Of a stretch of 64,000 bases of DNA, positions 152 to 30,807 are shown in pieces; positions within the stretch are counted from its first letter, which is position 1, and every line of letters begins with the position of its first letter. The position numbers and the translations under genes are program-made. The DNA is from a virus, in IMG/VR virus record IMGVR_UViG_3300027733_000032; one strand, written 5' to 3'. The notes under the pieces are model-generated. The model saw nothing but the letters and a program-made list of their open reading frames with translations, searched no databases and was not told the origin of the DNA.

Positions 152-355
152 TCAACTATCAAGAGCATCATCAGCAAAGTCTCGCAACCGTGGATACGCC
201 CAACGAACAGCGAACACCAATCCGACGAGGAAGGCGACTCCCCAGTTCACGAAGCCCGAGGCAAACCCAAGCACTCCGAAAATAATCTGACTGGTCGGCA
301 AAAATAATCCCAGCAGGATGGCTACGAACAGTTTATGTTTCTTGATGAGTTCCAT
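152..355 (-). CDS. small membrane protein
   Basis: Leaderless ATG 6 nt after class A promoter; two hydrophobic segments. Confidence 0.75.
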   Translation of the reverse strand: MELIKKHKLFVAILLGLFLPTSQIIFGVLGFASGFVNWGVAFLVGLVFAVRWAYPRLRDFADDALDS

Positions 356-742
356 ACCTTAGTATCGGTAACAGTATTACGCTAGTTGTCAGATAGTTTA
401 TCCACAGGCTGAGAAGTAGACCCTACATTTACACGAAGGCACAAACATATCAAAATGATATAGATGTGACGCTTATAAGGTATAAGGGGTAAGAGTCCCG
501 ATAAATCTACCCTCAACAAATGACGGTGGTGGAAAGCAACTTGCTGATAGGAGATTCGCCCTCCCCTTCGTGCTCGCAATGGAAAAGCGCATACATCTAG
601 AAGCGAAACGACTAGATGCTGAAAGGGAGGGAGGATGGAGCCATTTGAAAGGGCAAACCGTGGCATCTCCCACCATCCTTACGAAGAAGGCGAAACATTT
701 CTTCCTCAATGGAAAGAACGGGGCTCACCAGCATAGAGACAA

Positions 743-958
743 TCACACAGAGAGAGGGCGACTCGCAAGAGAACCAAGGAACTCATTGCCATCCATCTCC
801 ATCAACGCCCAGTAAGCATCTTTGTAAGAAGGGAACACTGATTCAAAGACAACTTCACCCGTGGCTTTATTCTCCAGCGTCCCCAGAACCTCAGAGCCCC
901 GCACAGGAGCGATACGAATCAGATAGACAAGTCCATTGAGGAGCGGTTGATGTTTCAT
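743..958 (-). CDS. hypothetical protein
   Basis: ORF track; same strand as neighbours. Confidence 0.55.
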   Translation of the reverse strand: MKHQPLLNGLVYLIRIAPVRGSEVLGTLENKATGEVVFESVFPSYKDAYWALMEMDGNEFLGSLASRPLSV

Positions 959-1040
959 GTCCGCACCCTACCCACAAAGCCGTTGAGAAGCAAGTACCGA
1001 ATCTCCGGGGCTGACTCGCTCCCCTATCCAGCCCGAACCG

Positions 1041-1247
1041 TCACACTGCCCCTTCGTACTCACGGGAGTGGAGTGTCTTGCCCGCATAGCGGAGGTCGTA
1101 GGCGAACGAGATGAGCCACGAACCGATGTCATCAAAGGGGTACTCACGAGTGAACTCAAAGGCTCCACAGGCTTTACCGTCGGTCACGACAGCCGTGACA
1201 GAGATGATGTTGGTTTCTAGATTGACTGAGTAGGTGAGGTTGTTCAT
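1041..1247 (-). CDS. hypothetical protein
   Basis: Leaderless ATG after class A promoter. Confidence 0.75.
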   Translation of the reverse strand: MNNLTYSVNLETNIISVTAVVTDGKACGAFEFTREYPFDDIGSWLISFAYDLRYAGKTLHSREYEGAV

Positions 1248-1352
1248 ACTTAGGTATCGGAACAGCCGTTACCTTAGTTGGGCGAATGTTTATCCACAGG
1301 TTGTGAATAAAGTATGAGACAACTACCGTAATACTCCTACCGATATATAGAC

Positions 1353-1547
1353 ATGAGCCACTCCACCTACACCCCCTCCCCCCTGTGCGATGCCTGTAGT
1401 CTCCACGAGCCAACCATGGACTGGTACGACCATGACGAGTTCTTTTGGAACCTGTGCGACGAGTGCTTCACCCGTGACGCTCTCATGGGGGGCGAATGCA
1501 CCTCAGCCTGCGACGGGGACTACGCCTGTGCCCACAACTCCCACTAG
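1353..1547 (+). CDS. Cys/His-rich putative Zn-binding protein
   Basis: Leaderless ATG after divergent class A promoter; CDAC, CDEC and further Cys/His. Confidence 0.75.
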   Translation: MSHSTYTPSPLCDACSLHEPTMDWYDHDEFFWNLCDECFTRDALMGGECTSACDGDYACAHNSH

Positions 1548-1770
1548 TGGGCGACCACTCTGAGTGAGAAAACCACCGAGAGTGAGAGTCCCGCATCCCA
1601 CTAACACGCTTAGATAAATCTATCTGAGTGATATTGGGGGTCGTAGGGGGCTAAAAGAGCGACAAAACTCCGAAATATTTGAAAATGCCGAGAATTCGCA
1701 AGTATTTCGTCCCCTATCAGGTCTTTTGCTGCGAACGCAGAGCGTGATTCTTCACCACTCTCCGTGAGGT

Positions 1771-2031
1771 CTAAAGGTGTATAGCACCCATTTCCTCAGG
1801 TGTGCTTTCCGACGGGGCTCGGCTTACCTTGATTTCCCATAGGGATAGCCAGCCATTCCATCCCTTCCCATTAACCCCTTTCAAGAGGATTTGGTCAGCA
1901 CGGTTCTTGTTCGGCACATAGACGAAGCGAGGTCCATGTTCTTTCACTCGGTTGCGGGTTCTCTTAGATGCGGTAGCCCCGTTTATTGAGACGAGGACTT
2001 CGGTTGGTTCGGTGATGTCGCTCAGGCTCAC
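1771..2031 (-). CDS. hypothetical protein
   Basis: Overlap-coupled ORF in minus-strand operon. Confidence 0.6.
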   Translation of the reverse strand: MSLSDITEPTEVLVSINGATASKRTRNRVKEHGPRFVYVPNKNRADQILLKGVNGKGWNGWLSLWEIKVSRAPSESTPEEMGAIHL

Positions 2032-2267
2032 TAGTTCACTTCTCCTACTCTGATACTTTCGTTATCCCTTGTCATACCCTTCATCAGCATCATGTACTTG
2101 CTTGACCACGATAACGGGACTACCCGTGAGTGTTGCTTGTCGTCATAGCCCGTCCATGTAATACGGAACTTGATTTGCTCTTCGTCTTGTATGTCGTTCT
2201 CCATAGTGATGTCTTTCTGTCTCTTGTAGGTATTAGAGAGTTTGCCAACACTGGAGTTGATATCCAT
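2031..2267 (-). CDS. hypothetical protein
   Basis: ORF track; operon context; start may be downstream. Confidence 0.6.
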   Translation of the reverse strand: MDINSSVGKLSNTYKRQKDITMENDIQDEEQIKFRITWTGYDDKQHSRVVPLSWSSKYMMLMKGMTRDNESIRVGEVN

Positions 2268-2306
2268 TGAGGGAAATACGCCCGCTTTTATCGTCTGTGT
2301 TCCCTT

Positions 2307-2606
2307 TTAGTGGACGAGGAAGCCTTCGTTCAGAACAGTAATCTGCTCCTGACCAGCAGAAACGCTGATAACGAGGTGTTCCATACGCTCGTCGGCAAAG
2401 TAGTCCTGCCATTGGGGGTCGTAGGTTTCGCGCCCGATATAGACACGGTACTCATCTCCACCACCAAGAGCGTTCAGAGCGGTGATAGCAGAGTCGTGAA
2501 TGTCCCGAAATGAGCCCCGATAGACGGTTTTACCGACCTGCTCGTTGTCCCATTGGTCGGCAGAAACCTTGACCAACTTCAGAATGTAGTGGTGATACCG
2601 TTCCAT
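2307..2606 (-). CDS. hypothetical protein
   Basis: Start overlaps stop of upstream gene. Confidence 0.7.
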   Translation of the reverse strand: MERYHHYILKLVKVSADQWDNEQVGKTVYRGSFRDIHDSAITALNALGGGDEYRVYIGRETYDPQWQDYFADERMEHLVISVSAGQEQITVLNEGFLVH

Positions 2607-2953
2607 CAGACGCTCACCGTTGTTCGGTAGTGAGTGAGAACTCGGGTTGCTATATCGCTAGAGGTCGCAGTTTCCCACTTAGTGACCTGCTCGTAGATGG
2701 CACTAATCGTGCTGTCGTTCAGTCGTTCCGTGAGAAACAAGTTCCAGCCAGCACCAGCACCGTGACAGTCAAGGACTGTGACAGAGTGAAAATGACCCTT
2801 GTAGGTGTCCATAGCGACGAACCAGCCCTCATCGTTACCGTCTTGGTAGGCACGCTCAATGTCTTTGCGGTCTATGTCAGACATAATGTCGTCAAGCGTA
2901 TTCCACGCAGAGATACTTCCTGTCAGTGGGCGGTATGTGATGTTGATTTCCAT
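2606..2953 (-). CDS. hypothetical protein, paralog of 9409-9798
   Basis: Start moved to leaderless ATG at 2953; shares FHS.T.LD...GAGWNLFL....D..I..IYE.V. Confidence 0.8.
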   Translation of the reverse strand: MEINITYRPLTGSISAWNTLDDIMSDIDRKDIERAYQDGNDEGWFVAMDTYKGHFHSVTVLDCHGAGAGWNLFLTERLNDSTISAIYEQVTKWETATSSDIATRVLTHYRTTVSV

Positions 2954-3063
2954 ACTTAGGTATCGGTTGGTCTGTTTCGTTAGTTGGGTCACTTTTTATT
3001 CGGGCAGATTATCGCCCTATAGGGGGACTTCGCAACCGGGGCTCCCCGTGCTACATTGGGCAT

Positions 3064-3261
3064 ATGGACTTAAACGACCGTTTCGCTGAATTGGATGCCA
3101 AGTTGGCTGTCCTTGAGGCTGAGGTGGAGTTTCTGTGCCGTGATGTCGCCCGACTTTGGCTGGATACGACGCTGACGCAGCCCCGTCCCGAGGGTTCGCA
3201 GGGTTTATTTAGATTTGTAGAGAAGCCTCGTTGGAAAGCGTGGGACTCTTCGGGGGAATGA
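3064..3261 (+). CDS. hypothetical coiled-coil protein
   Basis: ORF track; heptad-like N-terminus. Confidence 0.5.
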   Translation: MDLNDRFAELDAKLAVLEAEVEFLCRDVARLWLDTTLTQPRPEGSQGLFRFVEKPRWKAWDSSGE

Positions 3262-3276
3262 AAATGGGGACTCTTG

Positions 3277-3349
3277 CGTCTCAGGCAGGGGTCGAACCTA
3301 CAACCTACAGATTAGAAGTCTGTTGCGCTATCCATTGCGCCACTGAGAC
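3277..3349 (-). tRNA. tRNA-Arg (anticodon UCU)
   Basis: Minus strand: acceptor stem GTCTCAG/CTGAGAC, D arm TGGCGCAATGGATAGCGC, anticodon arm ACAGAC-TTCTAA-TCTGT, T loop GGTTCGACCC; 73 nt; no encoded CCA. Confidence 0.93.
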
Positions 3350-3421
3350 AGTTTGACTCTCAGGGAATAGTAGCCCCGTTTCTACGGTCACGCAACGGCG
3401 GTGATAGCAGAGGTATTCCCC

Positions 3422-3598
3422 TTACTTTGGCTTGTCGCCTTGCTTGACTAAGGGGTTGTTCATTGCCTCACGAAACGCTCTGTCGTGGCTTACGCCGTTG
3501 AGGTGTCGCTCTAGGGTGTAAGCCTCACTGAACGGCATACTCCAGCCGTACTTGGCTTTCGTGCGAAGTGTCAGGTGTTTTATGCTTATCTCGCTCAT
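3422..3598 (-). CDS. 58-aa hypothetical protein, paralog of 13486-13665
   Basis: Below ORF-track cutoff; leaderless ATG after class A promoter; GWS..F...Y....H..G.SHDRA...AM..P.V. Confidence 0.75.
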   Translation of the reverse strand: MSEISIKHLTLRTKAKYGWSMPFSEAYTLERHLNGVSHDRAFREAMNNPLVKQGDKPK

Positions 3599-3650
3599 AC
3601 TCAGATATCGGTTTGGGAGTTACGCTAGTTGGGTAACACTTTATCCACAG

Positions 3651-3935
3651 TCAGGATAGTGATTGGTCAATGGCAAGTATCAAGAGGCGTGCCTTTTCCC
3701 ACTCCGACCACTTGATAGCAGCCCCGAGTATCTGAATGAGCACTTTCGCATCATTACTGGTGGGATAGATGTCATCACCATTATCGTGTTCTTTCCCAAG
3801 CCACTCTGCCACAGGGACAAAGGAGAAATCGGGGCTACTGGTGCGCAACACGGCGACTTCGTAACGCCCGTCAATAGCGGTCATAGAGAAAGTATCTCCG
3901 CTGGGTAGGGTGTAATGGAGATTGTCGTGCTTCAT
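3651..3935 (-). CDS. hypothetical protein
   Basis: Start moved to ATG (MKHDNL) preceded by GAAAGGA. Confidence 0.7.
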   Translation of the reverse strand: MKHDNLHYTLPSGDTFSMTAIDGRYEVAVLRTSSPDFSFVPVAEWLGKEHDNGDDIYPTSNDAKVLIQILGAAIKWSEWEKARLLILAIDQSLS

Positions 3936-4037
3936 GAGGGTTGTCCTTTCGGTAAATCTAGGGGAATGATAGCCCCGTTTCTGTGTTCGTGTAATGGTTT
4001 GGGGGGAAGGGTTGCCCCTCACCCCCTTATCAACTAC

Positions 4038-4205
4038 TCAGAGCCACTCAAAGAGGTCTCCGTCAGCGATTTCGCTGTAGTCAAGGTCATTCGCATCAGC
4101 GATTGCCTGCCACACGGCATCCTCTGTCAAAGGAGCGTCAGGGTCAAGAAAATCTTGCCACTGTTTCGTAGGTTCTGTCATTTGGTCACCCCCATTCCCT
4201 GTCAT
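4038..4205 (-). CDS. 55-aa acidic hypothetical protein
   Basis: Leaderless ATG after class A promoter (MTGNGGDQMTEP...); an internal SD-led start is also possible. Confidence 0.7.
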   Translation of the reverse strand: MTGNGGDQMTEPTKQWQDFLDPDAPLTEDAVWQAIADANDLDYSEIADGDLFEWL

Positions 4206-4274
4206 ACCTAGGTATCGGTATCAGAGTTCCGTTAGTTGTCTATGGATTTATCCACAGGGCGGAAATAGCATTAT

Positions 4275-4303
4275 GGGGAGAGAGCGGTCGATGCTCCCTC
4301 CCC
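4275..4303 (-). terminator. GC-rich hairpin downstream of candidate ncRNA
   Basis: GGGGAGGGAGC-7 nt loop-GCTCTCTCCCC on the minus strand. Confidence 0.6.
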
Positions 4304-4324
4304 ACCCTGCCACGATGGACAAGT

Positions 4325-4440
4325 ATCAAAGTAGCCGTGCCATGCCCTCTCAGCACTCTGTCCCTCAGCCAGCATTGAGGTCGGCGCGATGATATCGCTC
4401 GCTCACTGGCTCGGTCGGGTCACATGGGGGCTACCCTGAT
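4325..4440 (-). ncRNA. candidate structured ncRNA, ~116 nt, rod-like
   Basis: Class A promoter with no ATG; 5' ATCAGGGTAGCC pairs with 3' GGCTACTTTGAT; inner helices CCATG/CATGG, AGCCAGT/GCTGGCT and GCGAT/ATCGC. Confidence 0.65.
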
Positions 4441-4839
4441 ATCTAAGTATCGGTTTCAGTATTGCGTTAGTTGGCTAGAAGTTTATCCACAGATTTATCC
4501 ACAGGCTCATATCAGCAGTTTCGCAGGAGTGTTTACTCGGTACGGATAGCCCCGGGTTTACAACCCGATTATGTGTTGCGCAACCAACGACGGTGGCGGA
4601 AAGGAAAATGCCCACAGGCACGGAAATAAATAGCCGTTACGCTGGTCTTTTCTAACAACAAAATCAACGACAAAAGACGGGACTCCAGAGGCACGGGAAA
4701 CAGGGGTACTGGGTGGGTTGCCTAGGGGTGATAGCACTCCGTTTTTGAGTACCTTCACAGCCCCGACATAGTAATCAGCCCCACACCGTTTGGCGTGAGG
4801 CTGACCACTGACAGGGAATTGCTTGGTTGAGATTAGTTA

Positions 4840-5094
4840 CTAGGGCAGGGGGAGCGTCGCTCCATCTACTCCCCAGTACGAGTCCTCCCAACAGCGAACG
4901 AACTGGGGGTCAATGCCCAACAGTACGCCGTAACGCTGGGCAATGGCGGTTGCCTGCTCCTTGTTGAAGCAGGGCATGGTCATAATGCCTGAGTCGCATT
5001 CATCACCCGTAGGTGACCGAAACCAAAAGTGGAGTTCGGTGTCAAGGATACGGATGGCAGTGATATCGCCCTTATGGATTGTCGTGGGTGTCAT
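4840..5094 (-). CDS. hypothetical protein
   Basis: Coupled to 5094-5309. Confidence 0.7.
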   Translation of the reverse strand: MTPTTIHKGDITAIRILDTELHFWFRSPTGDECDSGIMTMPCFNKEQATAIAQRYGVLLGIDPQFVRCWEDSYWGVDGATLPLP

Positions 5095-5309
5095 TACTGT
5101 CCTTCCTTGTTGATGATGCGGAGAATGTCTTGGCTCATGTTGAGACCGCCAACGAGAGCAGTCTGAATGGCGTTCTTCAATGCCCGTGGCGTTGCCAACG
5201 GCAAGTAGTTGTCAATTTCGTCCCAAGCCTTGAGACCAGCACGGATTGCTTCGCAGGTCTCTTGGGCGTACTGGGCGTACTTTTCTTCGTGGGTTGTAGT
5301 TGTTTCCAT
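5094..5309 (-). CDS. hypothetical protein
   Basis: Leaderless ATG after class A promoter. Confidence 0.75.
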   Translation of the reverse strand: METTTTHEEKYAQYAQETCEAIRAGLKAWDEIDNYLPLATPRALKNAIQTALVGGLNMSQDILRIINKEGQ

Positions 5310-5415
5310 ACTTGGGTATCGGTATGTCTATCCCCTTAGTTGGGTCAGAGTTTATCCACAGGGCTGTGGATAAAGTGCCGCACAACTACCGCAACACTGA
5401 GACCGATACCTTATT

Positions 5416-5532
5416 ATGATTGACCTTATAAAAGAAATTGCATACATCGTCGGCACACTAACAGCGTGGGCATTGTGTATCTCGCCATTGGCGATTACGC
5501 TACTCACCAACCTACCCGATGACGACCAATGA
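5416..5532 (+). CDS. 38-aa single-TM peptide
   Basis: Leaderless ATG after divergent class A promoter; MIDLIKEIAYIVGTLTAWALCISPLAITLLTNLPDDDQ. Confidence 0.7.
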   Translation: MIDLIKEIAYIVGTLTAWALCISPLAITLLTNLPDDDQ

Positions 5533-5543
5533 AGGGAACGGAC

Positions 5544-5723
5544 ATGAAGTACCGAGTTACATACACACGCCACGATGACCGACTCTTTGTCGGCAGTCAG
5601 GGAGTTTCTTTCTTTCGCACGGAACACGGGGCTGCCCGTTTCCTCGGACAGTTGGAAGAGTCTTACAACATTGACCAAGACTCCATCGTCGTCCACATCT
5701 TTGAGGATGGCGAACAGGCGTAA
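5544..5723 (+). CDS. hypothetical protein
   Basis: AAGGGA SD before ATG 5544; track starts at 5529. Confidence 0.65.
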   Translation: MKYRVTYTRHDDRLFVGSQGVSFFRTEHGAARFLGQLEESYNIDQDSIVVHIFEDGEQA

Positions 5724-5807
5724 CAAGGATAAGCGGAAGCCCCGGCTATTCTTGAGATGTGAGTGTGGTTAGCAGGTCGGAAGCCAACGCCTCCACACCA
5801 CAAAACG

Positions 5808-5845
5808 AAAGCCCCCCACCAAGTCAATCAGCGGTGGGGGGCTTT
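5808..5845. terminator. bidirectional intrinsic terminator
   Basis: AAAGCCCCCCACC-12 nt-GGTGGGGGGCTTT between convergent genes. Confidence 0.8.
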
Positions 5846-5955
5846 TGTGCTTGCTCGGACTTAGAAACGGGGCTCCCTCGGATTTAGAAACGGAGAGTGT
5901 AGATATGCGAAAGTTCCCCACCGTGATGAACGGCAGGGAACTAGGGGGAGGTGGG

Positions 5956-6078
5956 TCAGAGCGACCGTAGTACTCGCTCAACTCTGCCATCTCGGCACTC
6001 GCAGTCGGTTTCTACGACTTCGCAGGCTTGGCAGACAGGCTCGTCATTATCTTGGGCTGGGGTTGATGTGTTGTTCAT
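5956..6078 (-). CDS. 40-aa Cys-rich peptide
   Basis: Leaderless ATG after class A promoter; CQAC...CEC. Confidence 0.65.
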   Translation of the reverse strand: MNNTSTPAQDNDEPVCQACEVVETDCECRDGRVERVLRSL

Positions 6079-6133
6079 ACTTATGTATCGGTATGAGAGT
6101 TACGTTAGTTGGGTCATTATTTATTCGCTTGGG

Positions 6134-6343
6134 CTAGATGGATGAGGCTCCGAACCGTGCTCCACCAAGAGCGGAGTCGCAGGCATCACATTGACTCCAA
6201 GAGAAGTCAGTTGTATCTACTGAGTCCACCACTAGGGGTCCCGTGCGCCCTATCCCCGACTTGACACGGAGTTCAGTCTCCGAGTCCATACCCGAGAAGT
6301 CGTTGTTGGCGTGCGCCATAGCGCAGTCTACGCAAATGTTCAT
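6134..6343 (-). CDS. small Zn-finger-like protein
   Basis: C-x2-C at both ends (CVDC, CDAC); SD-led ATG at 6343. Confidence 0.7.
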   Translation of the reverse strand: MNICVDCAMAHANNDFSGMDSETELRVKSGIGRTGPLVVDSVDTTDFSWSQCDACDSALGGARFGASSI

Positions 6344-6441
6344 TGTTTCATCTCCATACCTGTGTATCGGTTTCAGTATTCTATTAGTTGGGCGAGAGTT
6401 TATCCACACCCAACGAAGATGTGCTCGAAACTCGGGGCTTC

Positions 6442-7025: not shown

Positions 7026-7091
7026 ACTCAGGTATCGGTTCTGTCGTTGCGTTGGTTGTGTCTAAGTTTATCCACAGGTTTATCCACAGTG

Positions 7092-7427: not shown

Positions 7428-7474
7428 TATAGGTGAACCTAGAGCGCAGTTTGTTAGCCCCGAGTTCCACTCTC

Positions 7475-20718: not shown

Positions 20719-20732
20719 ATTCCTGTTTTGTT

Positions 20733-23496: not shown

Positions 23497-23557
23497 AGGT
23501 TCAGTAAACCTTCTAGTAGTAGTAATAACAACCTCAGTTGAGATTTATCGGAAAGAT

Positions 23558-24590: not shown

Positions 24591-24898
24591 TAGTTGTCAC
24601 CTTCCTCAAGGCAGGCGACTTGGCTTTCGTCCATCTCAATAACCCTCACCCAAGAAAGGATGATGCGGAGAAAAACGGAGTAGTCGTTTGGCGAGTATGT
24701 ATGAGTCTGAGTGCGGAACTCCTCAATTTCGTGTTGGGGGACTCCCTCTCGTCGGAGAAGGTGAGTGACCTCTGCGATGATTTCGGAGTCGGTCATTCCA
24801 CAAGTGCTAAGGCTGATGTCATATTTGGGCTTGATGTCTAGGTGTGTCATACTCCCCTTTTCGCTCGTTTGGTTCTTGCCGTATATATCCATTCCCAT
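24590..24898 (-). CDS. hypothetical protein with N-terminus copied from 24072-24590
   Basis: AAAGGA SD; MGMDIYGKNQTSEKGS vs MGMDVYGKNTTSEKGS. Confidence 0.75.
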   Translation of the reverse strand: MGMDIYGKNQTSEKGSMTHLDIKPKYDISLSTCGMTDSEIIAEVTHLLRREGVPQHEIEEFRTQTHTYSPNDYSVFLRIILSWVRVIEMDESQVACLEEGDN

Positions 24899-25196
24899 TG
24901 GAGTTTCCTTTCGTCGTTGTATTTACAGTGAACAGCGTAGGTTTACACAACACAACCTGTTCGTGGGATTTATCTAAGTATCGGTTAGGCAGTTACCGTA
25001 GTTGGGCGTAACTTTATCCACAGGCTGTGGACAACTGAATAAAAATGCGGGGCTCGGTCTGAGTCTTTGGATAAATCATTTAGCGAGGTTGTTGTTACTA
25101 CTACTAGGCGGTTCACTGTATCTAACGCCCGACGGTGGCGGATACCAAAAATAAAAACTGACCCAACTAACGAAATAGCAGAACCGATACCCCACT

Positions 25197-25580
25197 ATGA
25201 ACACACTTACTATGCCCGAAGCAACAGCCATTGCCATTATGGAATGGGCTAAGAACAAACTTGCCACCGTCGGCTACTTGGAGTTCTCCGACGATTGGTG
25301 GGAGTCCTATGACAACGATTGGGATATCAACATTTGGCGTTCCGATATGAGCGAGGAAATCCGTGTCAATGCCTACCCGATGACATTCACTAATGGTGAA
25401 TGGAATACCGACTTCTCCAACTGGGTGAGTTTGGGGACTCTCCGTGAGCCTATCTCTTGGCAGGACGGACATTCGTGCGACCAATGCGGTGACCCGATGG
25501 GTGGCAAGTATGACGGCGACCAACCAACTTCCTACGGTGAGGACGGCGTTGCTCATCTCCGTTGTACGCCCATTGAATAA
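25197..25580 (+). CDS. acidic hypothetical protein
   Basis: Leaderless ATG after class A promoter. Confidence 0.8.
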   Translation: MNTLTMPEATAIAIMEWAKNKLATVGYLEFSDDWWESYDNDWDINIWRSDMSEEIRVNAYPMTFTNGEWNTDFSNWVSLGTLREPISWQDGHSCDQCGDPMGGKYDGDQPTSYGEDGVAHLRCTPIE

Positions 25581-25629
25581 ATCTAAATCACAGGTTGTTA
25601 TTACTACTATTAGGAAGTTCAATAGAACT

Positions 25630-25974
25630 ATGACCACTACACTCTTACAACGAACCAAAGACGCTATCGCTGACGGGAAAATCATTGGCGACGGGCATAC
25701 CATCTTCAATCCCGACTTCTACGCCCCTCACTTCAGTGAGGACGAACTGAGTAAAGCGAAACTCATCCAAACTTTCAAGTCAGACAAGTCTGACCACAAG
25801 TCCACCATTTTTGGCAAGGACGGTAAGCCGATGGAGAAACTCAAGGGCGTGTACAACCTCACTTTCTTGTATTGGCTCTGCGGTGCGCTTGGTATCAACT
25901 CTCACAACGACTACAACGGGCGTGGCTCGCAGGCAGACGAACTCGCTCGCCGTATCCGCAAGGAACTGGCATGA
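25630..25974 (+). CDS. hypothetical protein
   Basis: Start moved to leaderless ATG after class B motif. Confidence 0.8.
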   Translation: MTTTLLQRTKDAIADGKIIGDGHTIFNPDFYAPHFSEDELSKAKLIQTFKSDKSDHKSTIFGKDGKPMEKLKGVYNLTFLYWLCGALGINSHNDYNGRGSQADELARRIRKELA

Positions 25975-26225
25975 GAAGCGACAAAGCACCATTCACCATT
26001 ACCCATCACGATGAAGCCTCGTCTTGGTGTGACTCATCACTTCTGAAGGCATTAGCCAAGACATTCAGTACCGTCTTGGTCACAACACTTGATGGCGACA
26101 TCTACGAGGGCGAGGTGCTTGCCGTTGAGAACGGAATACTCGTCCTCTCCAATAGCAATCTTGGCAATGCGTGGGCAGAAATGGAAATCACGCTAACGAG
26201 TATCACCAACATTCATTATTGCTAA
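25971..26225 (+). CDS. small beta-barrel protein, Sm/Hfq-like pattern
   Basis: ATGA-coupled; TVLVTTLDGDIYEGEVLAVENGILVLSN resembles Sm1 motif. Confidence 0.6.
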   Translation: MRSDKAPFTITHHDEASSWCDSSLLKALAKTFSTVLVTTLDGDIYEGEVLAVENGILVLSNSNLGNAWAEMEITLTSITNIHYC

Positions 26226-26279
26226 AGAAATCTCACCCGTGAGGTTGTTATTACTACTAATAAGGAGTTCACTGTAACT

Positions 26280-26465
26280 ATGACCACCTACCACATTGAG
26301 TACATCATTCACTTAGAGATAGAGGCTGAGAGCGAGGACGAGGCACTAAAACTCGGCTCGCAGGAACTTCACGCCCTTGACGGTGACGGACTCGCTAACT
26401 GTTGCGAGTTCTTAGATATTGAGATAGCACTAACCGACGACTACTACTTAGGAGAAACCGAATGA
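26280..26465 (+). CDS. small acidic protein (EA.SEDEA motif)
   Basis: Leaderless after class B; tandem paralog of next gene. Confidence 0.75.
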   Translation: MTTYHIEYIIHLEIEAESEDEALKLGSQELHALDGDGLANCCEFLDIEIALTDDYYLGETE

Positions 26466-26659
26466 AGTATTACCGTGTAGGCATTTTTGCGTCCGTGAAT
26501 GTGGAAGCAGAGAACGAGGACGAAGCAATACGCCAAGCCCGTGACATTGTTATTGAGGGCGCAATCAAGACGCACGATTACGAGTTTGAGGCTCAGGACA
26601 GAGAACTTGACCCCGACTTGGACTTCTTGGAAATGATGGCTCAGGAGAAGGCGAAATGA
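26462..26659 (+). CDS. small acidic protein (EA.NEDEA motif)
   Basis: ATGA-coupled; DpnD/PcfM-like pattern. Confidence 0.75.
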   Translation: MKYYRVGIFASVNVEAENEDEAIRQARDIVIEGAIKTHDYEFEAQDRELDPDLDFLEMMAQEKAK

Positions 26660-27084
26660 CGAAACTCGTTGTTCATATTGGTACAGGGACTATTATTGAC
26701 GCTGACGAATGCGTTATCGTTGATGTGGAGAAACTGGACGACCACGACACGACACTCGTGAACGATGGTGATGACTCTGACCTTGTTGAGATTGCCGAAC
26801 GACTCGGTAAGCCACTCAACCTGACGGACTTGACCTATCGCAATACGGTGGCGTTCTCTCCATCATCTCTCCGTAGCGAAGCAGAGGAACAGTTGAGTAA
26901 CGGTTACGCCACTGACGATGACGCTATTGCGTATCTGACTTGGACTGCCGAGGTAGCCACTGATGACGAACTGAGCGGTGTTGCTGACTACATTCTCAAT
27001 GACGACACAATGTGGAACGAATACAACACGACGGTAATGGACGGTATGCGCCAAGGTTACAGATGGTCTAAGGAGAGCAAGTAA
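26656..27084 (+). CDS. acidic hypothetical protein
   Basis: ATGA-coupled. Confidence 0.75.
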   Translation: MTKLVVHIGTGTIIDADECVIVDVEKLDDHDTTLVNDGDDSDLVEIAERLGKPLNLTDLTYRNTVAFSPSSLRSEAEEQLSNGYATDDDAIAYLTWTAEVATDDELSGVADYILNDDTMWNEYNTTVMDGMRQGYRWSKESK

Positions 27085-27365
27085 TGGGACTCATCGCTTT
27101 TCATACACCCGAAGATGGATTTACACTCAACGGCGTTGAGGTAGAGATTATTTGGGACGACACTCCCGAAGCAACAGAGGGTGTTCGTATCATTGTTGAT
27201 GAGAACGCCGTACGGGTGACGGATATTTTGTCAGACCCCGACCACTCCGAACACGATATGTGGTCTGCGTGGGACGACGACATCTTCTACTACTGCGAGT
27301 CCGAACAAGAATGGAAAGAACTTCTCGTCACAGGACATCACGACGGATGGAGAGTTCTCCAATAA
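27084..27365 (+). CDS. acidic hypothetical protein
   Basis: TAATG-coupled. Confidence 0.75.
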   Translation: MGLIAFHTPEDGFTLNGVEVEIIWDDTPEATEGVRIIVDENAVRVTDILSDPDHSEHDMWSAWDDDIFYYCESEQEWKELLVTGHHDGWRVLQ

Positions 27366-27414
27366 ATCTGTCCGACAGGTTGTTGTTACTACTAATAGAG
27401 AGTTCAATGAACTT

Positions 27415-27621
27415 ATGACCATCACACTTGACCAACACACTTGCCCTCGTTGTTTCGGGGGTATCCCTAATGACTTACAGCGAGGTCAGTACATCGGAGC
27501 ATTATCACGCACCGATAACAAGACCTACATCTGTTCAGACTGCGGAACGGCAGAGGGACTAGAGGACTATTTTGACCTTGGCTGTTCACCTCAATCCGAA
27601 TGGCGGGTGAACCAATCGTGA
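27415..27621 (+). CDS. small Zn-finger protein
   Basis: Leaderless after class B; CPRC...ALSRTDNKTYICSDCG. Confidence 0.8.
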   Translation: MTITLDQHTCPRCFGGIPNDLQRGQYIGALSRTDNKTYICSDCGTAEGLEDYFDLGCSPQSEWRVNQS

Positions 27622-27956
27622 CCACCATCATTGACCCTTGTATCCATTGCGGAGAACCCACTGCGTTTGGCTCTGTCCGTGAGGACGGAACGCTCGTCGG
27701 CAAGTTCGTGAACCGTATTCCTGCTGACACTATGGACGAGGAAACGGGCGAATACAAAGACGGGTATGCGTGTGCCGAGTGCGCTGGGTATGGGTGCGAC
27801 GAGTGCGATAAGCCGATTTACCTTGACTGCGAAACCCGTGTGGATTATCAGGACGAGAGTGACAAGTACCACTACGGCAACTTTCATACCGAGTGTTACG
27901 ACGAAGCGAAGCACGGCAAAGCCGAATACGGCGAGAACATCAAGGAGACTCTGTAA
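27618..27956 (+). CDS. multi-Zn-finger protein
   Basis: GTGA-coupled start; CIHC, CAEC, CDEC, H..C. Confidence 0.75.
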   Translation: MTTIIDPCIHCGEPTAFGSVREDGTLVGKFVNRIPADTMDEETGEYKDGYACAECAGYGCDECDKPIYLDCETRVDYQDESDKYHYGNFHTECYDEAKHGKAEYGENIKETL

Positions 27957-28270
27957 TGCGTGAAATAGACCTATCCGTACGGAACGCCGACAACTCTTGG
28001 TATTGGCAACAAATCCGTGAATACAGCAACAAGCAAGTCCATCGGTTACGAGCGAACATTCGTCGCAATGCTTACGATGTTCAGTCGTATGCCAACATTG
28101 AGAAGTGGTCGGACGAGCGAGGCTGGGCAATCATCTCCTCTCACCCCATCACGGACTACCCGTGCGTCAAGGTTTCGTACATGACGAAAGAACTCACCGA
28201 CAACGACCATGAGTGGTTCATTCAGACCGCCGAGGAACTGTTCACTATTGGGGTGACATTCGCACGATGA
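27956..28270 (+). CDS. hypothetical protein
   Basis: TAATG-coupled start. Confidence 0.7.
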   Translation: MREIDLSVRNADNSWYWQQIREYSNKQVHRLRANIRRNAYDVQSYANIEKWSDERGWAIISSHPITDYPCVKVSYMTKELTDNDHEWFIQTAEELFTIGVTFAR

Positions 28271-28542
28271 GAACTATCACCGTTACACAAACATACGAAC
28301 TCATCGTATCCATTGAGACTCAAGTCCCCGACGACTACAAGTACGAGGATATGGAAAACTCATTCATTGACTTCCCCATTCGGGTTGATGTGAACCCCGT
28401 ATGGGAAGATACCGAGAATGTCAAGGTCGTTGGAGTATGCGTGGACGCTCTTGTATCTCTAACGGGTGAGGACGCTTTCGCTCTTTATGAAATGAAGGAC
28501 GACGAATACACTCGCCTAGTTGAGGAGAGTGACGATGAGTGA
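28267..28542 (+). CDS. acidic hypothetical protein
   Basis: ATGA-coupled start. Confidence 0.7.
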   Translation: MRTITVTQTYELIVSIETQVPDDYKYEDMENSFIDFPIRVDVNPVWEDTENVKVVGVCVDALVSLTGEDAFALYEMKDDEYTRLVEESDDE

Positions 28543-28768
28543 ATACCACGATTATAGGGGGGTCATCCGTATGGACTTTGATTGTGCTAAAGACTCTCGT
28601 AAAGAGGTAATCGTACAGTTACCTACAGACCCCGACGCAAAATACGAGCAACCCGTGTGTTGTGTTGTGTTTACTGAAGAAGGTATTGTTTTGGACTTCT
28701 TTGAAGATGGTGAACTTGTTCGTTCGCTTGGTCGCACTTATGAAGAGTGGTCTGACTTAGCACTATGA
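28535..28768 (+). CDS. hypothetical protein
   Basis: GAGGAG SD before ATG 28535. Confidence 0.7.
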   Translation: MSEYHDYRGVIRMDFDCAKDSRKEVIVQLPTDPDAKYEQPVCCVVFTEEGIVLDFFEDGELVRSLGRTYEEWSDLAL

Positions 28769-28843
28769 GTGTCGTTAGTCACTCAGGTTGTGATTACGCC
28801 TATCTGTTCTTATTATCAACTATCAAGTAAACGAAAGGGAAAT

Positions 28844-29236
28844 ATGAATACAACAAACATTGTTCGCAAGCCAAACGGCACTGTTGATTTTGACGCATAC
28901 AAGGGACTAGAGGGAAGTATCGGACTAACGGGCATGACCTTCACTATCAAGGTGATTGACGCTCGCCAGTCCTTTGGACGACTAGACCTCTGCGTTGAGC
29001 CGCTTAACGGCGAAGGCTCTCGTTGGATGGAAAGCCGCAAGGTGGAACTCAAGAGCGAGCCAGTGCCTACAGAAGTCATACCAACACAAGCAATGACAGT
29101 CCGAGAGCAGATTGCTCAACGAGCGATTGACGCTTCTCGGGAAAATGGGTCGGTTAATGCCGACCTCATTCAGCGACTGCTGAACCAAATCAACAACGGC
29201 AACTTTGCCACAGAAACAAAGGAAACAATTAAATGA
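28844..29236 (+). CDS. hypothetical protein
   Basis: AAAGGGA SD before ATG 28844. Confidence 0.7.
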   Translation: MNTTNIVRKPNGTVDFDAYKGLEGSIGLTGMTFTIKVIDARQSFGRLDLCVEPLNGEGSRWMESRKVELKSEPVPTEVIPTQAMTVREQIAQRAIDASRENGSVNADLIQRLLNQINNGNFATETKETIK

Positions 29237-29574
29237 AGCGCATCGTATTTGAGAACCCCACCGTCGCCAAGCGTGGACGCAGTGGCGGGGCTGTACAAGA
29301 GTTCATCACCAAACTGAGCGAGACCCCCGACAAGTGGGCTGTCTATACCCGTAGTGCCAATCACATCTCCTACTACTACACAGTGGCGAGCAAGATGGGT
29401 AACCTCAAAATCGCCGTTCGTGCGAATAGCGATGGCAAGACTCATACTGTTTACATGATGTACTTGGGCGTGGAAGCAACCAAGACTCGTGTTGCGGAGA
29501 AGGCAAACAAGAAGGCGAACAAGAAGGTAGCCGTCAAGAAGGCGACTGCCAAGAAGGTCACCGTCAAGAAGTGA
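29233..29574 (+). CDS. basic putative DNA-binding protein with Lys/Ala-rich tail
   Basis: C-terminal KKANKKVAVKKATAKK histone-like repeats; paralog of 20986-21381. Confidence 0.75.
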   Translation: MKRIVFENPTVAKRGRSGGAVQEFITKLSETPDKWAVYTRSANHISYYYTVASKMGNLKIAVRANSDGKTHTVYMMYLGVEATKTRVAEKANKKANKKVAVKKATAKKVTVKK

Positions 29575-29579
29575 TTGTG

Positions 29580-29605
29580 TCAGGGGTGGGGAAACCTGCC
29601 CCTGA
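29580..29605 (+). terminator. hairpin terminator
   Basis: TCAGGGGTGGG-GAAA-CCTGCCCCTGA. Confidence 0.65.
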
Positions 29606-29686
29606 TAAATCCATCTAGTCGGGTTGCTATTACAATAACTAGACTGTTCACTGAAAGTACAAACACTACTACTAAAGGGGACTACT

Positions 29687-30424
29687 ATGCCGAACTGGTG
29701 CTATAACCGAATGAATGTTGCGGGTGACCGTGACTCACTAGTCAAACTCACTGAAGCGATTACCCGTCAGTACGACTCGTCGCTCGCTGAGACAACAATG
29801 GGCGTTGAGCAAGTGGACTACGACCTATCTGTCTTGTTCCCTGTTCCTGAACCGTTGGCTATTCGTGCCGTCATGTTTAATACCGATAGCACTGACCCTG
29901 AATATCAAGAACTTCTCAAAAAGTACGAAGCAAATAAGGCGGAGTACGGTCACACCACTTGGTATGACTGGGCTATTGAGAACTGGGGTACGAAGTGGTC
30001 GCCTCGTATTGAGGAATGGGAAATCATTGACCACTTTGATGGCGGTGCTGGTATCTATGCGTACTACGAAACTGCGTGGTCACCTGCTGACGGACTTATC
30101 CGTGAAGTGAGCAGGCAGTTCCCGACACTTCTGTTCACGGTTTCATCTGACGAGGAAGGTCGCTCGTTCTCTTGTGTTTCGGCGTTCAGTAATGGCGAGA
30201 TGGTCGCTGAGGCTGGTTGCGAACTAGAACCCAACAAAGTTCCCGAACAGTTCCGTGAGGACTATGCGAGGATAGACAAGGACATAGAGACTGGCGTAAG
30301 TGCTGTCGGCTACGACGCTTGGGACGAGATGAGCGAACTTGACAGTGATGTTCTCGGCTGGTTAGAGACTCAAGTGAACGACAAACTGGTTGAGTTGGGA
30401 CTGCTACCGAAGGTGGATGTATGA
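29687..30424 (+). CDS. DUF1281 family protein
   Basis: MPNWC.N; WYDW..ENWGTKW; YETAWSP motifs. Confidence 0.85.
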   Translation: MPNWCYNRMNVAGDRDSLVKLTEAITRQYDSSLAETTMGVEQVDYDLSVLFPVPEPLAIRAVMFNTDSTDPEYQELLKKYEANKAEYGHTTWYDWAIENWGTKWSPRIEEWEIIDHFDGGAGIYAYYETAWSPADGLIREVSRQFPTLLFTVSSDEEGRSFSCVSAFSNGEMVAEAGCELEPNKVPEQFREDYARIDKDIETGVSAVGYDAWDEMSELDSDVLGWLETQVNDKLVELGLLPKVDV

Positions 30425-30448
30425 CCCGTAGGTCACCCGTGAGGCTTC

Positions 30449-30697
30449 TCAGACTTCTTCTGAAGTCTCTTCAGCGTCGGCTTTCTTTGTGGACTTACGC
30501 TTTGGCTTATCGTCGGCTGGGGCTTCCTCGGGAGAAGCGTCCTCAGTAGGCACTTCAGCAGACGGGGCTTCCTCGGCTACTGGGGCTACCTCTAAGTGTC
30601 CACAGTTTTCGTCGTGGGTGTGCTCCTCGGCTACGGCGTTTTCGGCGAGATAGGCTAACTTCTTGACTTCTCGCTGTTCTGGGGTGAGTTTACGCAT
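30449..30697 (-). CDS. low-complexity acidic protein
   Basis: ATG at 30697 (MRKLTPEQR); Glu/Ala/Pro-rich. Confidence 0.65.
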   Translation of the reverse strand: MRKLTPEQREVKKLAYLAENAVAEEHTHDENCGHLEVAPVAEEAPSAEVPTEDASPEEAPADDKPKRKSTKKADAEETSEEV

Positions 30698-30807
30698 GAT
30701 AGAAACCTCGCTAGTTGTAAGTGTGGATACCATGATACCTAACTTATCCACATCCCTGTGGATAAAGTACCACACAACTAGTGAAACAACCAAACCGATA
30801 GGGAGTT

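What the first reader, a model, noticed from the sequence alone, without database searches (positions are those of the whole stretch)
355..30807. Array of ~30 near-identical sigma28-geometry promoters driving leaderless micro-gene cassettes
Seen: 30 copies of CAACTARY-N11-ACCGATAN, with ATG 6 nt downstream in most, one every 0.3-1.5 kb across the first 25 kb. Known: the E. coli sigma28 (FliA/WhiG family) consensus is TAAAGTTT-N11-GCCGATAA, so the 8-11-8 geometry and CCGATA -10 match while the -35 differs. Leaderless mRNAs are common in Actinomycetota. Inference: a phage-encoded or redirected group-3 sigma factor reads a large early regulon of unknown proteins. No sigma gene is in this window.
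Basis: partly seen in the sequence, partly recalled or inferred. Interest (0 to 1): 0.85.

Follow-up and report, generated by a model that had tools for sequence, protein, structure and literature searches.

The report
Sigma-28-type leaderless promoter array in phage
An uncultured freshwater phage, probably of actinobacteria, drives about 30 small early-gene cassettes from near-identical promoters that look like targets of a flagellar/WhiG-type sigma factor and start transcription on the ATG itself, a layout I found described for no other phage.

Summary
The window has exactly 30 sites (19 exact, 9 with one mismatch, 2 with two; 0.3 expected), all between 355 and 30808. They score 37-53 bits and nothing else exceeds 12 bits.

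The element has four blocks: cTGTGGATAAA (a perfect DnaA box in 20 of 30; ATAAA always), CAACTAacGnAAy, wACCGATAc, and TArgT|ATG. ATG sits at the fixed position in 23 of 30. T-1/A+1 is kept even where there is no ATG, and third-codon-position drift starts at that ATG. They are therefore very probably promoters for leaderless mRNAs.

The -10 block (CCGATA, invariant CGA) and the spacing fit the FliA/WhiG consensus. The -35 block fits only partly.

No sigma gene is in the window, in a 39-kb relative, or in the complete distant relative DSL-LC01. A candidate host lineage, a freshwater Actinomycetes MAG that carries one such promoter, encodes a true WhiG. A host WhiG is therefore my leading reader, but this is unproven, and I could not search the rest of the phage genome.

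A 90%-identical relative has 31 such promoters, all switched from cC to tG at -34/-33, with scrambled spacers and recombination breaks at +1. This resembles the PeSL cassettes of T4-type phages.

I rate it a new variant of a known kind. Other notes of this scan touch the same stretch.

The parts
353..30810 (.). Whole array: 30 class A promoters with their transcription units (early arm of the phage).
353..407 (-). Class A promoter, +1 = 355. ATG at +1, 67-aa ORF. Perfect DnaA box at -51..-43.
1245..1299 (-). Class A promoter, +1 = 1247. ATG at +1, 68 aa. DnaA box plus inverted partner. Head-to-head with the 1353 promoter.
1301..1355 (+). Class A promoter, +1 = 1353. ATG at +1, 64 aa. Box with 1 mismatch (TGTGAATAA). 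Divergent partner of 1247.
2951..3005 (-). Class A promoter, +1 = 2953. ATG at +1, 115 aa. GAATAA upstream form (no full box).
3596..3650 (-). Class A promoter, +1 = 3598. ATG at +1, 58 aa. The same unit carries tRNA-Arg(TCT) at 3349-3276.
4203..4257 (-). Class A promoter, +1 = 4205. ATG at +1, 55 aa, with an in-frame second ATG behind GGGGGTG at +25.
4438..4492 (-). Class A promoter, +1 = 4440. No ATG (ATC). Tandem DnaA boxes. Drives a non-coding stretch that ends at a strong terminator at 4305-4273.
5307..5361 (-). Class A promoter, +1 = 5309. ATG at +1, 71 aa. Head-to-head with the 5416 promoter through a DnaA-box palindrome.
5364..5418 (+). Class A promoter, +1 = 5416. ATG at +1, 38 aa.
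6076..6130 (-). Class A promoter, +1 = 6078. ATG at +1, 40 aa. GAATAA form.
6355..6409 (-). Class A promoter, +1 = 6357. The ATG at +1 opens only 5 codons. The real gene starts behind GGAG at +15 (short leader).
7023..7077 (-). Class A promoter, +1 = 7025. ATG at +1, 121 aa. Tandem boxes. CAACCA variant.
7754..7808 (-). Class A promoter, +1 = 7756. ATG at +1, 93 aa. GAATAA form.
8162..8216 (-). Class A promoter, +1 = 8164. ATG at +1, 52 aa, with an in-frame second ATG behind GGAGGTG at +25.
8922..8976 (-). Class A promoter, +1 = 8924. ATG at +1, 127 aa. GAATAA form.
10190..10244 (-). Class A promoter, +1 = 10192. No ATG (ACA). 26-nt leader with a 9-bp hairpin around GAGGGAG, then ATG.
10963..11017 (-). 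Class A promoter, +1 = 10965. ATG at +1, 68 aa. Head-to-head with the 11071 promoter.
11019..11073 (+). Class A promoter, +1 = 11071. ATG at +1, 68 aa.
12435..12489 (-). Class A promoter, +1 = 12437. ATG at +1, 86 aa.
12725..12779 (-). Class A promoter, +1 = 12727. No ATG (GTA). Tandem boxes. Drives about 230 nt of non-coding sequence.
14058..14112 (-). Class A promoter, +1 = 14060. ATG at +1, 134 aa. AAATAA form.
15184..15238 (-). Class A promoter, +1 = 15186. ATG at +1, 118 aa. GAATAA form.
15891..15945 (-). Class A promoter, +1 = 15893. ATG at +1, 140 aa. Tandem boxes.
16372..16426 (-). Class A promoter, +1 = 16374. ATG at +1, 68 aa. In the relative the same promoter heads a different gene, with the break at +1.
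19126..19180 (-). Class A promoter, +1 = 19128. ATG at +1, 103 aa. GAATAA form.
20090..20144 (-). Class A promoter, +1 = 20092. No ATG. Followed by class B promoter 20042-20013 and an ATG at 20005.
21986..22040 (-). Class A promoter, +1 = 21988. No ATG. Followed by class B motif 21930-21901.
24969..25023 (-). Class A promoter, +1 = 24971. No ATG. Followed by class B promoter 24957-24928. Leftward edge of the divergence point.
25145..25199 (+). Class A promoter, +1 = 25197. ATG at +1, 127 aa. AAATAA form. First rightward unit.
30756..30810 (+). Class A promoter, +1 = 30808. ATG at +1, 165 aa. Heads the unit with the AAA ATPase and the 496-aa CobT-like protein.

Best explanation
The 30 elements are promoters for a bacterial multi-subunit RNA polymerase carrying a sigma-28 (FliA/SigD/WhiG) family sigma factor. 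The wACCGATAc block is the -10 element. Its CGA is the melting core, and the A of CGA lies at -10 or -11. The (c/t)(C/G)AACTA block is the -35 element, 15-16 bp upstream. The invariant ATAAA at -46..-42 acts like a proximal UP element. In two thirds of the promoters it is extended into a perfect DnaA box (TGTGGATAA, -51..-43) that could let host DnaA modulate them.

Transcription starts on the A of the ATG 7 nt after ACCGATA, so most first genes are translated from leaderless mRNAs. Later genes in each unit use Shine-Dalgarno sites.

The sigma is most likely the host's own WhiG-type sigma (inferred, not shown). Together the promoters express the roughly 31-kb early arm as about 30 short units.

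The repeated promoters also serve as recombination joints at which gene cassettes are exchanged. Shown here: the anatomy, the statistics, conservation in relatives, coding from +1, and the absence of a sigma gene in the window. Inferred: the start site, the sigma family, which sigma it is, and the roles of ATAAA and DnaA.
For: Statistics and anatomy:
- 30 sites against 0.3 expected.
- The sites score 37-53 bits and nothing else exceeds 12 bits.
- Four conserved blocks are separated by variable spacers. T-1 is kept in 29 of 30 and A+1 in 28 of 30, including the 7 sites without ATG.
- The sites sit at all divergence points, as head-to-head pairs at 1247/1353, 5309/5416 and 10965/11071, and at 24971/25197.

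Leaderless reading:
- ATG is at +1 in 23 of 30 sites, and 22 of these open ORFs of 38-165 aa.
- In 13 orthologous pairs, mismatches in the first 12 codons fall 20:5:2 on codon positions 3:1:2.
- An SD-like 4-mer lies upstream of 2 of 23 such starts, against 18 of 52 other predicted genes.

Phylogenetic footprint against a relative with about 90% DNA identity (19 orthologous pairs):
- -32..-30, -28, -22 and -12..-8 are 100% kept.
- Spacer positions are 21-47% identical.
- Downstream coding sequence is about 90% identical.

Match to the sigma-28 family:
- Consensus -35 TAAA / -10 GCCGATAA (PMC8325347).
- Actinobacterial WhiG2 consensus T(A/C)AA-N16-GCCGATAA with an invariant central CGA (bioRxiv 10.64898/2026.01.14.699351).
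- In the P. aeruginosa fliC promoter the -10 is GCCGATAA at -15..-8, with -11A flipped out (PMC12784957).
- E. coli FliA-bound promoters include TCAACTTC-N11-GCCGATAT at modA (PMC4203485).

Other points:
- Sigma-70-type sites are not enriched in 0-40 kb (19 found vs 17.2 expected; 11 vs 21.8).
- No sigma gene was found in the window, in the relative G001 or in the complete relative DSL-LC01.
- The candidate host lineage has a WhiG scoring 255 bits against a cut-off of 189.6, with E = 1e-74 to S. venezuelae WhiG and a near-identical region 4.2 helix.
Against: - No transcript data exist, so the start site is inferred.
- The -35 block matches the sigma-28 consensus only partly: 2 of 4 in the N15 register and 3 of 4 in the N16 register. 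The match depends on lineage: cCAA in the window, tGAA in G001, cGAA in L214.
- All promoters of the relative differ from the window's at -34/-33. This is hard to explain with a host WhiG whose recognition helix is highly conserved.
- The host assignment rests on one promoter copy at the end of a 4.4-kb MAG contig and on gene content shared with DSL-LC01.
- The candidate host chromosome shows no class A-like or clear WhiG-type promoters. The matches found were antisense inside genes.
- Running an early programme on an alternative sigma that hosts often keep sequestered would be unusual.
- About 100 kb or more of the phage genome could not be searched.
Confidence: 0.5

Rival explanations
1. This keeps the same promoter logic, but the sigma is the phage's own. 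It would be a sigma-28-like or highly diverged sigma encoded outside this window, or delivered with the DNA as part of the capsid cargo proteins. It would co-evolve with its promoters.
For: All 31 promoters of the 90%-identical relative carry tG instead of cC at -34/-33, and their DnaA box lies 1 nt closer. Lineage-specific promoter variants of this kind are typical of phage-encoded specificity factors. Each site carries 37-53 bits, far more information than host regulons show. Earlier notes of this scan describe giant cargo polyproteins in this genome, and the 1661-aa protein in the window ends in three HTH modules.
Against: No sigma-70-family gene was found in the window, in G001 (39 kb) or in the complete 129-kb relative DSL-LC01. 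A sigma needed for the first genes cannot itself be made from them. No actinophage with a FliA/WhiG-like sigma turned up in 50,697 phage records. Contig L214 carries C-type and G-type promoters side by side, so position -33 may be tolerant rather than discriminating.
Confidence: 0.2
2. The promoters are read by an ECF-type (group 4) sigma through AAC at -32..-30 and CGA at -12..-10 (AAC-N17-CGA). This could be one of the diverged sigma-like paralogues that lie just downstream of the single class A promoter found in an Actinomycetes MAG.
For: The only part of the -35 block invariant across lineages is AAC(T)A. AAC in the -35 and CG(T/A) in the -10 are ECF hallmarks (my own knowledge, for example B. 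subtilis SigX/SigW; not checked here). In L225 the class A promoter precedes an operon with two sigma-like paralogues of 215 and 204 aa. The evidence for their sigma nature is a Sigma70_r4_2 hit at E = 6.5e-5, 27% identity between the two, and JGI naming relatives sigma-70/sigma-24. ECF sigmas are commonly autoregulated.
Against: The seven invariant bases ACCGATA match the long sigma-28 -10 element far better than the short ECF -10. The syntenic host locus in G009 lacks the promoter. No class A motif lies near the paralogues in five other genomes. Their fold could not be confirmed, as the model had a mean pLDDT of 50. The family is absent from IMG/VR.
Confidence: 0.12
3. The contiguous -15..+4 part (wACCGATAcnTArgTATG) is the promoter of a phage-encoded single-subunit (T7-like) or other phage RNA polymerase, and the upstream blocks are separate regulatory sites.
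For: The information content is very high, the distribution is all-or-none and the initiating bases are conserved, as in T7-type promoters. Promoter variants are lineage-specific.
Against: No RNA polymerase gene was found in the window, and none is annotated in DSL-LC01. The strongest conservation lies in two blocks 15-16 bp apart with a scrambled spacer, which is the signature of a sigma-70-family holoenzyme. The CCGATA core coincides exactly with the sigma-28 -10 element.
Confidence: 0.06
4. The elements are not promoters. They would be start-associated signals acting on RNA or translation (like the start-associated sequences of Cluster K mycobacteriophages, recalled from memory), processing sites, or mere recombination sites.
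For: The distance to the start codon is fixed. Synteny breaks cluster at the elements.
Against: Head-to-head pairs sit where no upstream transcript can exist. Seven copies have no start codon yet keep every block. There is no SD-like content. The spacers are scrambled without compensatory pairing. No other promoter class covers 0-16 kb.
Confidence: 0.05

Closest known systems
FliA/SigD/WhiG (sigma-28, group 3) dependent promoters. Sources: PMC8325347, PMC12784957, PMC4203485, bioRxiv 10.64898/2026.01.14.699351.
   Same: The -10 core CCGATA with invariant CGA. The -35 to -10 distance of 15-16 bp. A start about 6-7 nt after the -10 8-mer. A CAACT-type -35 occurs in real E. coli FliA sites.
   Different: The first base of the -10 8-mer is A, not G, and the last is C, not A. 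The -35 lacks the canonical T and the third A. Two extra conserved blocks are present (GnAAy in the spacer, ATAAA/DnaA box at -42..-51). There are 30 near-identical copies in a phage rather than a scattered host regulon, and the transcripts are leaderless.
PeSLs (promoter-early stem-loops) of T4-type phages. Sources: PMC2839356, PMC4122927.
   Same: Many near-identical early promoters, often with an adjacent stem-loop, flank small non-essential genes in a plastic genome region. Differences between close relatives map to these cassettes.
   Different: PeSL promoters are sigma-70-like and their stem-loops are tested terminators. Here the -10 is sigma-28-like. The stem-loop is a DnaA-box palindrome present in only about a third of copies and is untested. 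The mRNAs are leaderless.
Early-promoter array of Actinomycetia phage DSL-LC01 (OQ999401; genome described in PMC10611076, which does not mention promoters).
   Same: A distant relative by gene content: VanY, TauD, AAA ATPase plus CobT-like protein, HslV-like protein, Trp halogenase, and a giant protein in the head module. It has 33 near-identical promoters in front of small genes.
   Different: Its promoters read CTAAAGnTGTTATAAT (housekeeping extended -10 type), followed by 35-45-nt leaders with a conserved GAAAGGA ribosome site. They have no CCGATA, no DnaA box and no leaderless starts.
T7-type phage promoter sets that co-evolve with the phage polymerase (own knowledge).
   Same: All-or-none, very information-rich sites with conserved initiating bases and lineage-specific variants.
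   Different: The architecture here is bipartite with a variable spacer, and no phage polymerase was found.

Membership tests
Sigma-28 (FliA/SigD/WhiG) dependent promoter | -10 element GCCGATAA with invariant central CGA | tested here: met
   ACCGATAc: CCGATA is invariant in 30 of 30 sites, which is 6 of 8 against the consensus. It is also kept in 31 sites of G001 and in other relatives.
Sigma-28 (FliA/SigD/WhiG) dependent promoter | -35 element TAAA or T(A/C)AA, 15-16 bp upstream of the -10 8-mer | tested here: inconclusive
   In the N15 register it reads CAAC (2 of 4). In the N16 register it reads cCAA in the window, tGAA in G001 and cGAA in L214 (3, 3 and 2 of 4). TCAACTT variants are bound by E. 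coli FliA (PMC4203485).
Sigma-28 (FliA/SigD/WhiG) dependent promoter | Transcription depends on a sigma-28 family sigma | not testable with these tools
   This needs in vitro transcription or a whiG mutant host.
Sigma-28 (FliA/SigD/WhiG) dependent promoter | A sigma-28 family gene is available in the phage or the host | tested here: inconclusive
   None was found in the window, in G001 or in DSL-LC01. One is present above the cut-off in the candidate host lineage, but the host is not proven and the rest of the phage genome was not searchable.
Leaderless mRNA | Start codon at the transcript's 5' end, with no Shine-Dalgarno site | tested here: inconclusive
   The sequence side is met: ATG lies 7 nt after the -10 block in 23 of 30 sites, coding constraint starts at that ATG, and only 2 of 23 have an SD-like 4-mer. 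The 5' ends were not mapped.
PeSL-type mobile regulatory cassette | Repeated early promoter with an adjacent stem-loop terminator | tested here: inconclusive
   The repeated promoter is present. Nine sites have an inverted partner to their DnaA box and 5 have a tandem direct box (one site has both), so 13 of 30 have a second box. These palindromes have no T-run, and their terminator function was not tested.
PeSL-type mobile regulatory cassette | Differences between close relatives map to the cassettes | tested here: met
   By my count, about 12 of some 32 alignment-block ends fall within 70 nt of a class A +1, where about 4 would be expected. Promoter 16374 is kept while its gene is replaced. 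Spacers are scrambled next to 90-99% identical genes.
PeSL-type mobile regulatory cassette | Sigma-70-like promoter | tested here: not met
   The blocks contain no TAnnnT or TATAAT. Sigma-70-type sites are not enriched.
T7-like single-subunit polymerase promoter | A cognate phage RNA polymerase gene | tested here: inconclusive
   None was found in the window or in relatives. The rest of the genome was not searched.

The most novel reading that the evidence does not exclude
A large lytic-type actinophage runs its whole early programme on the host's WhiG-type alternative sigma instead of the housekeeping sigma, with host DnaA bound 9 bp upstream of two thirds of the promoters. The onset of infection would then be wired to the host's developmental (c-di-GMP/anti-sigma) state and to its replication state. 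In the alternative version, the phage brings the sigma in with its capsid cargo. Either would be a transcription take-over strategy not described so far.
Probability: 0.3. Interest if true: 0.85.

Novelty: new variant of a known kind. Interest (0 to 1): 0.65.

Why it matters
Phage early genes are normally read by the host's housekeeping holoenzyme or by an injected phage polymerase. A 30-promoter early regulon with a sigma-28/WhiG-type -10 element, uniform leaderless starts and a DnaA box at a fixed distance would be a third strategy.

It would also give a clean natural system for three open questions:
- How leaderless mRNAs are made and translated efficiently.
- What WhiG-type sigmas do in non-motile, non-sporulating freshwater actinobacteria.
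- Whether DnaA acts as a transcription cofactor for phages.

The comparison with a close relative shows promoters that are recognisably the same yet rewritten at two positions in every copy. This makes the co-evolution of promoters and their reader directly testable.

Practically, the promoters are compact (55 bp), very specific, and define leaderless expression cassettes for actinobacteria.

Tried and rejected
The rest of the phage genome could therefore not be searched for a sigma or polymerase.
- Two collection scans used a pattern with one N too many and are void. (CAACTAAC only) and one search returned chance singletons.
- The corrected pattern found only short contigs of the same phage family and one MAG contig.
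- No near DNA match for 1-12 kb in the 50,697 phage records. The 496-aa protein gave no protein match there either. The 614-aa protein gave nothing in IMG/VR.
- The sigma-like paralogues next to the MAG promoter copy have no relatives in the window or in G001 and none in IMG/VR. There is no class A motif at their loci in other genomes. Their AlphaFold model was too poor to search with.
- Host-chromosome searches for TAAA-N16-CCGATA, SAAC-N16-CCGATA and TMAA-N16-GCCGATA gave either counts near the control or sites antisense inside genes. The host WhiG regulon therefore remains unseen.
- A DNA search of 201 genomes of the MAG's family found only a low-complexity tail and a distant ATPase.
- Rfam found only the tRNA.
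- Literature searches found no phage described as using FliA/WhiG-type promoters. This covers only the open-access library.
- I considered a housekeeping -10 (TAnnnT) hidden in the blocks and rejected it, because no register fits.

Full report
**Observation.** The motif CAACTARY-N11-ACCGATA occurs 19 times exactly. With up to two mismatches it occurs 31 times against 0.30 expected. Thirty copies lie between 363 and 30800. The 31st, at 50491, is a two-mismatch hit inside a gene and lacks everything else. A weight matrix built over -36..+1 scores the 30 sites at 37-53 bits, and no other position in the 64-kb window exceeds 12 bits. The class is therefore all-or-none. 24 sites are on the - strand and 6 on the + strand, always pointing the way the genes run: leftward from about 25 kb to 0, rightward from 25.2 to 39.7 kb.

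**Anatomy.** I number from the A of the downstream ATG as +1. Conservation forms four blocks:
- cTGTGGATAAA at -52..-42, with ATAAA invariant.
- accCAACTAacGnAAy at -36..-21.
- wACCGATAc at -15..-7, with CCGATA invariant.
- TArgT|ATGa at -5..+4.

Twenty promoters carry a perfect DnaA box (TGTGGATAA) at -51..-43 and one carries a one-mismatch box. Nine have only GAATAA/AAATAA in that place. Thirteen have a second box: 5 tandem, 9 inverted, and one site has both. The inverted boxes include the three head-to-head promoter pairs at 1247/1353, 5309/5416 and 10965/11071.

**Start site and leaderless reading.** ATG sits exactly 7 nt after ACCGATA in 23 of 30 sites, and 22 of these open ORFs of 38-165 aa. 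T-1 (29 of 30) and A+1 (28 of 30) are kept even in the seven sites without ATG, as expected for a pyrimidine/purine start-site preference.
- Of the sites without ATG, two precede non-coding stretches (4440, which ends at a strong terminator at 4305-4273, and 12727). One has a 26-nt hairpin leader with GAGGGAG (10192). Three sit just upstream of a second promoter class.
- One ATG site (6357) opens only five codons and is followed by GGAG and the real start.
- In 13 orthologous gene pairs between the window and a relative, mismatches in the first 12 codons fall 20:5:2 on codon positions 3:1:2. Over 40 codons the split is 99:44:29. Coding constraint therefore begins at the +1 ATG.
- An SD-like 4-mer precedes 2 of 23 such starts, against 18 of 52 other predicted genes. 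The start calls for the latter are rough.

With the -10 block only 7 nt upstream there is no room for a leader. The 5' ends themselves are inferred, not measured.

**Relatives.** IMGVR_UViG_3300027732_000054 (39,087 bp; handle G001; CheckV completeness 26%) is colinear with window 1-33.7 kb at 82-95% DNA identity. It has 31 class A promoters. Every one reads ctGAACTA instead of ccCAACTA, and the DnaA box lies 8 rather than 9 nt upstream of the first letter of that hexamer.

Across 19 orthologous promoter pairs:
- The core positions are 100% identical.
- The spacers are 21-47% identical, which is essentially random.
- Positions -34/-33 are 0% identical.
- Identity jumps to about 90% at +1.

Alignment blocks often end within a few bases of +1. 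Promoter 16374 is retained with an identical spacer while its gene is replaced.

Pattern scans found only short freshwater contigs of this family:
- One contig is 99.6% identical to the window (L211).
- Most are of the G type.
- One divergent contig (L214) has gcGAACTA promoters and a CAACTA promoter 65 bp apart.

The promoter is thus under strong selection at its blocks. It changes in concert within a lineage and behaves as a recombination joint, much like the PeSL cassettes of T4-type phages (PMC2839356, PMC4122927).

**What reads it.** The invariant CCGATA equals the core of the FliA/SigD/WhiG -10 element GCCGATAA (PMC8325347).
- For actinobacterial WhiG2 the reported consensus is T(A/C)AA-N16-GCCGATAA, with the central CGA the most conserved part (bioRxiv 10.64898/2026.01.14.699351).
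- In the P. aeruginosa sigma-28 open complex the -10 is GCCGATAA at -15..-8 and the A of CGA (-11) is flipped out (PMC12784957). Here that A is at -10, within normal start-site play.
- The -35 block is only a partial match: CAAC against TAAA in the N15 register, and cCAA, tGAA or cGAA against T(A/C)AA in the N16 register.
- Real E. coli FliA sites include TCAACTTC-N11-GCCGATAT at modA, which is FliA-dependent (PMC4203485).
- No register gives a housekeeping TAnnnT. Sigma-70-type sites are not enriched in 0-40 kb (19 found vs 17.2 expected, 11 vs 21.8).

I therefore read the elements as sigma-28-family promoters, with the caveat that AAC-N17-CGA also recalls ECF promoters.

**Which sigma.**
- Pfam on 84 ORFs of 0-39.7 kb gave only one Sigma70_r4 hit (E = 3.3e-5). 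I attribute it, by inspection of the sequences only, to the C-terminal helix-turn-helix of the 126-aa ORF at 35063-35440(-).
- Twenty of the larger ORFs at 29.7-64 kb gave only a weak region-4 hit (Sigma70_r4_2, E = 6e-4, below the cut-off) in the HTH tail of the 1661-aa protein, and no full sigma.
- phmmer with a WhiG, and an HMM of a sigma-like family, found nothing in the six frames of the window and G001.
- The distant but complete relative Actinomycetia phage DSL-LC01 shares VanY, TauD, AAA plus CobT-like, HslV-like and Trp halogenase genes and a giant head-module protein (OQ999401, 129 kb; PMC10611076). It has no sigma-70-family gene.
- DSL-LC01 drives its own array of 33 small-gene units from CTAAAGnTGTTATAAT promoters with SD leaders. 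The array architecture is thus shared, and the promoter type is what is special here.

**Candidate host.** A scan of 185,579 species genomes found one true class A promoter of the window type with all four blocks. It lies at nt 80-130 of a 4.4-kb contig of a freshwater 'Actinomycetes bacterium' MAG (L225). Its syntenic locus in a related genome sits on a 98-kb chromosomal contig and lacks the promoter.
- That MAG and three of four relatives encode a FliA/WhiG sigma above the curated cut-off (255 bits against 189.6). The match to S. venezuelae WhiG (6PFJ) has E = 1e-74 and a near-identical region 4.2 helix. These genomes have no flagellin.
- The MAG chromosome has one or two class A-like sites in 2.2 Mb, against 30 in 31 kb of phage.
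- I could not detect the host's own WhiG promoters.
- The host assignment remains a lead, supported only by this contig and by the DSL-LC01 relationship.

**Weighing.** That these are promoters starting at or next to the ATG I hold at about 0.85. That the -10 is read by a sigma-28-family sigma I hold at about 0.6. A host WhiG is ahead of a phage-borne sigma for three reasons: no phage sigma is seen, a sigma for the first genes cannot come from those genes, and the complete relative manages without one. The concerted cC-to-tG switch argues the other way. It could also reflect a phage factor reading the AACTAA block, or homogenisation by promoter exchange.

**Limits.** Two scans were wasted on a mistyped spacer. 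Earlier notes of this scan on the same genome gave context only: DnaA boxes, a second promoter class, ncRNA candidates, a restriction-site-free early arm and cargo polyproteins. Follow-up reports overlapping my stretch were withheld.

Noticed in passing
window 16722-31337 (e.g. 20013-20042 -, 24928-24957 -, 25087-25116 +, 26243-26272 +, 31308-31337 +): A second promoter-like class, GGTTGTTrTTACTACTAnTAGnnnGTTCAC (GGTTGT-N18-GTTCAC). There are 6 exact copies against 0.15 expected, and by my reading about 13 with up to 2 mismatches. They cluster around the 25-kb divergence point. Several have an ATG 7 nt after GTTCAC, so these too may be leaderless. Three lie directly downstream of class A promoters that lack an ATG.
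   Followed up: partly
window 4270-4440 (-) and 12499-12727 (-): Two class A promoters with tandem DnaA boxes and no start codon drive non-coding stretches that both begin GTAGCCC. The first ends at a 13-bp terminator hairpin at 4305-4273. Rfam has no match.
   Followed up: partly
window 10166-10192 (-): The one clearly leadered class A unit has a 9-bp hairpin (GATAGGTAC...GTACCTATC) that encloses its GAGGGAG ribosome site just before the ATG. This may be a translational switch.
   Followed up: no
L225:261-2915 (+) and G009:C9 (L241:2234-4835): Freshwater Actinomycetes MAGs carry a chromosomal operon of a macro-domain protein, two diverged sigma-like paralogues (215 and 204 aa, 27% identical, only region 4 detectable) and DeaD. 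The family occurs in 10 of 41 related genomes, always as tandem copies. In one MAG a phage-type class A promoter sits about 130 nt upstream of the operon.
   Followed up: partly
L266:22607-43318 (Actinomycetia phage DSL-LC01, OQ999401): There are 33 near-identical CTAAAGnTGTTATAAT promoters, each followed by a leader of about 40 nt ending in ACGACGAAAGGACAA and an ATG, in front of small genes. The paper describing this genome mentions no promoters.
   Followed up: partly
window 4205 and 8164 (-): Two paralogous first genes (MTGNGG...) have a leaderless ATG and, eight codons later and in frame, a second ATG behind a strong GGAGGTG/GGGGGTG site. One unit may therefore yield two protein forms.
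   Followed up: no
window 1-34000 versus G001: Promoter spacers are fully scrambled (21-47% identity) next to genes that are 90-99% identical, and the boundary lies exactly at +1. The promoters evolve faster than neutral sites, or are swapped among loci.
   Followed up: partly
window 34282-34561: Six further perfect DnaA boxes cluster here, outside any class A promoter. Of the 33 perfect boxes in the window, 20 sit at -51..-43 of class A promoters.
   Followed up: no
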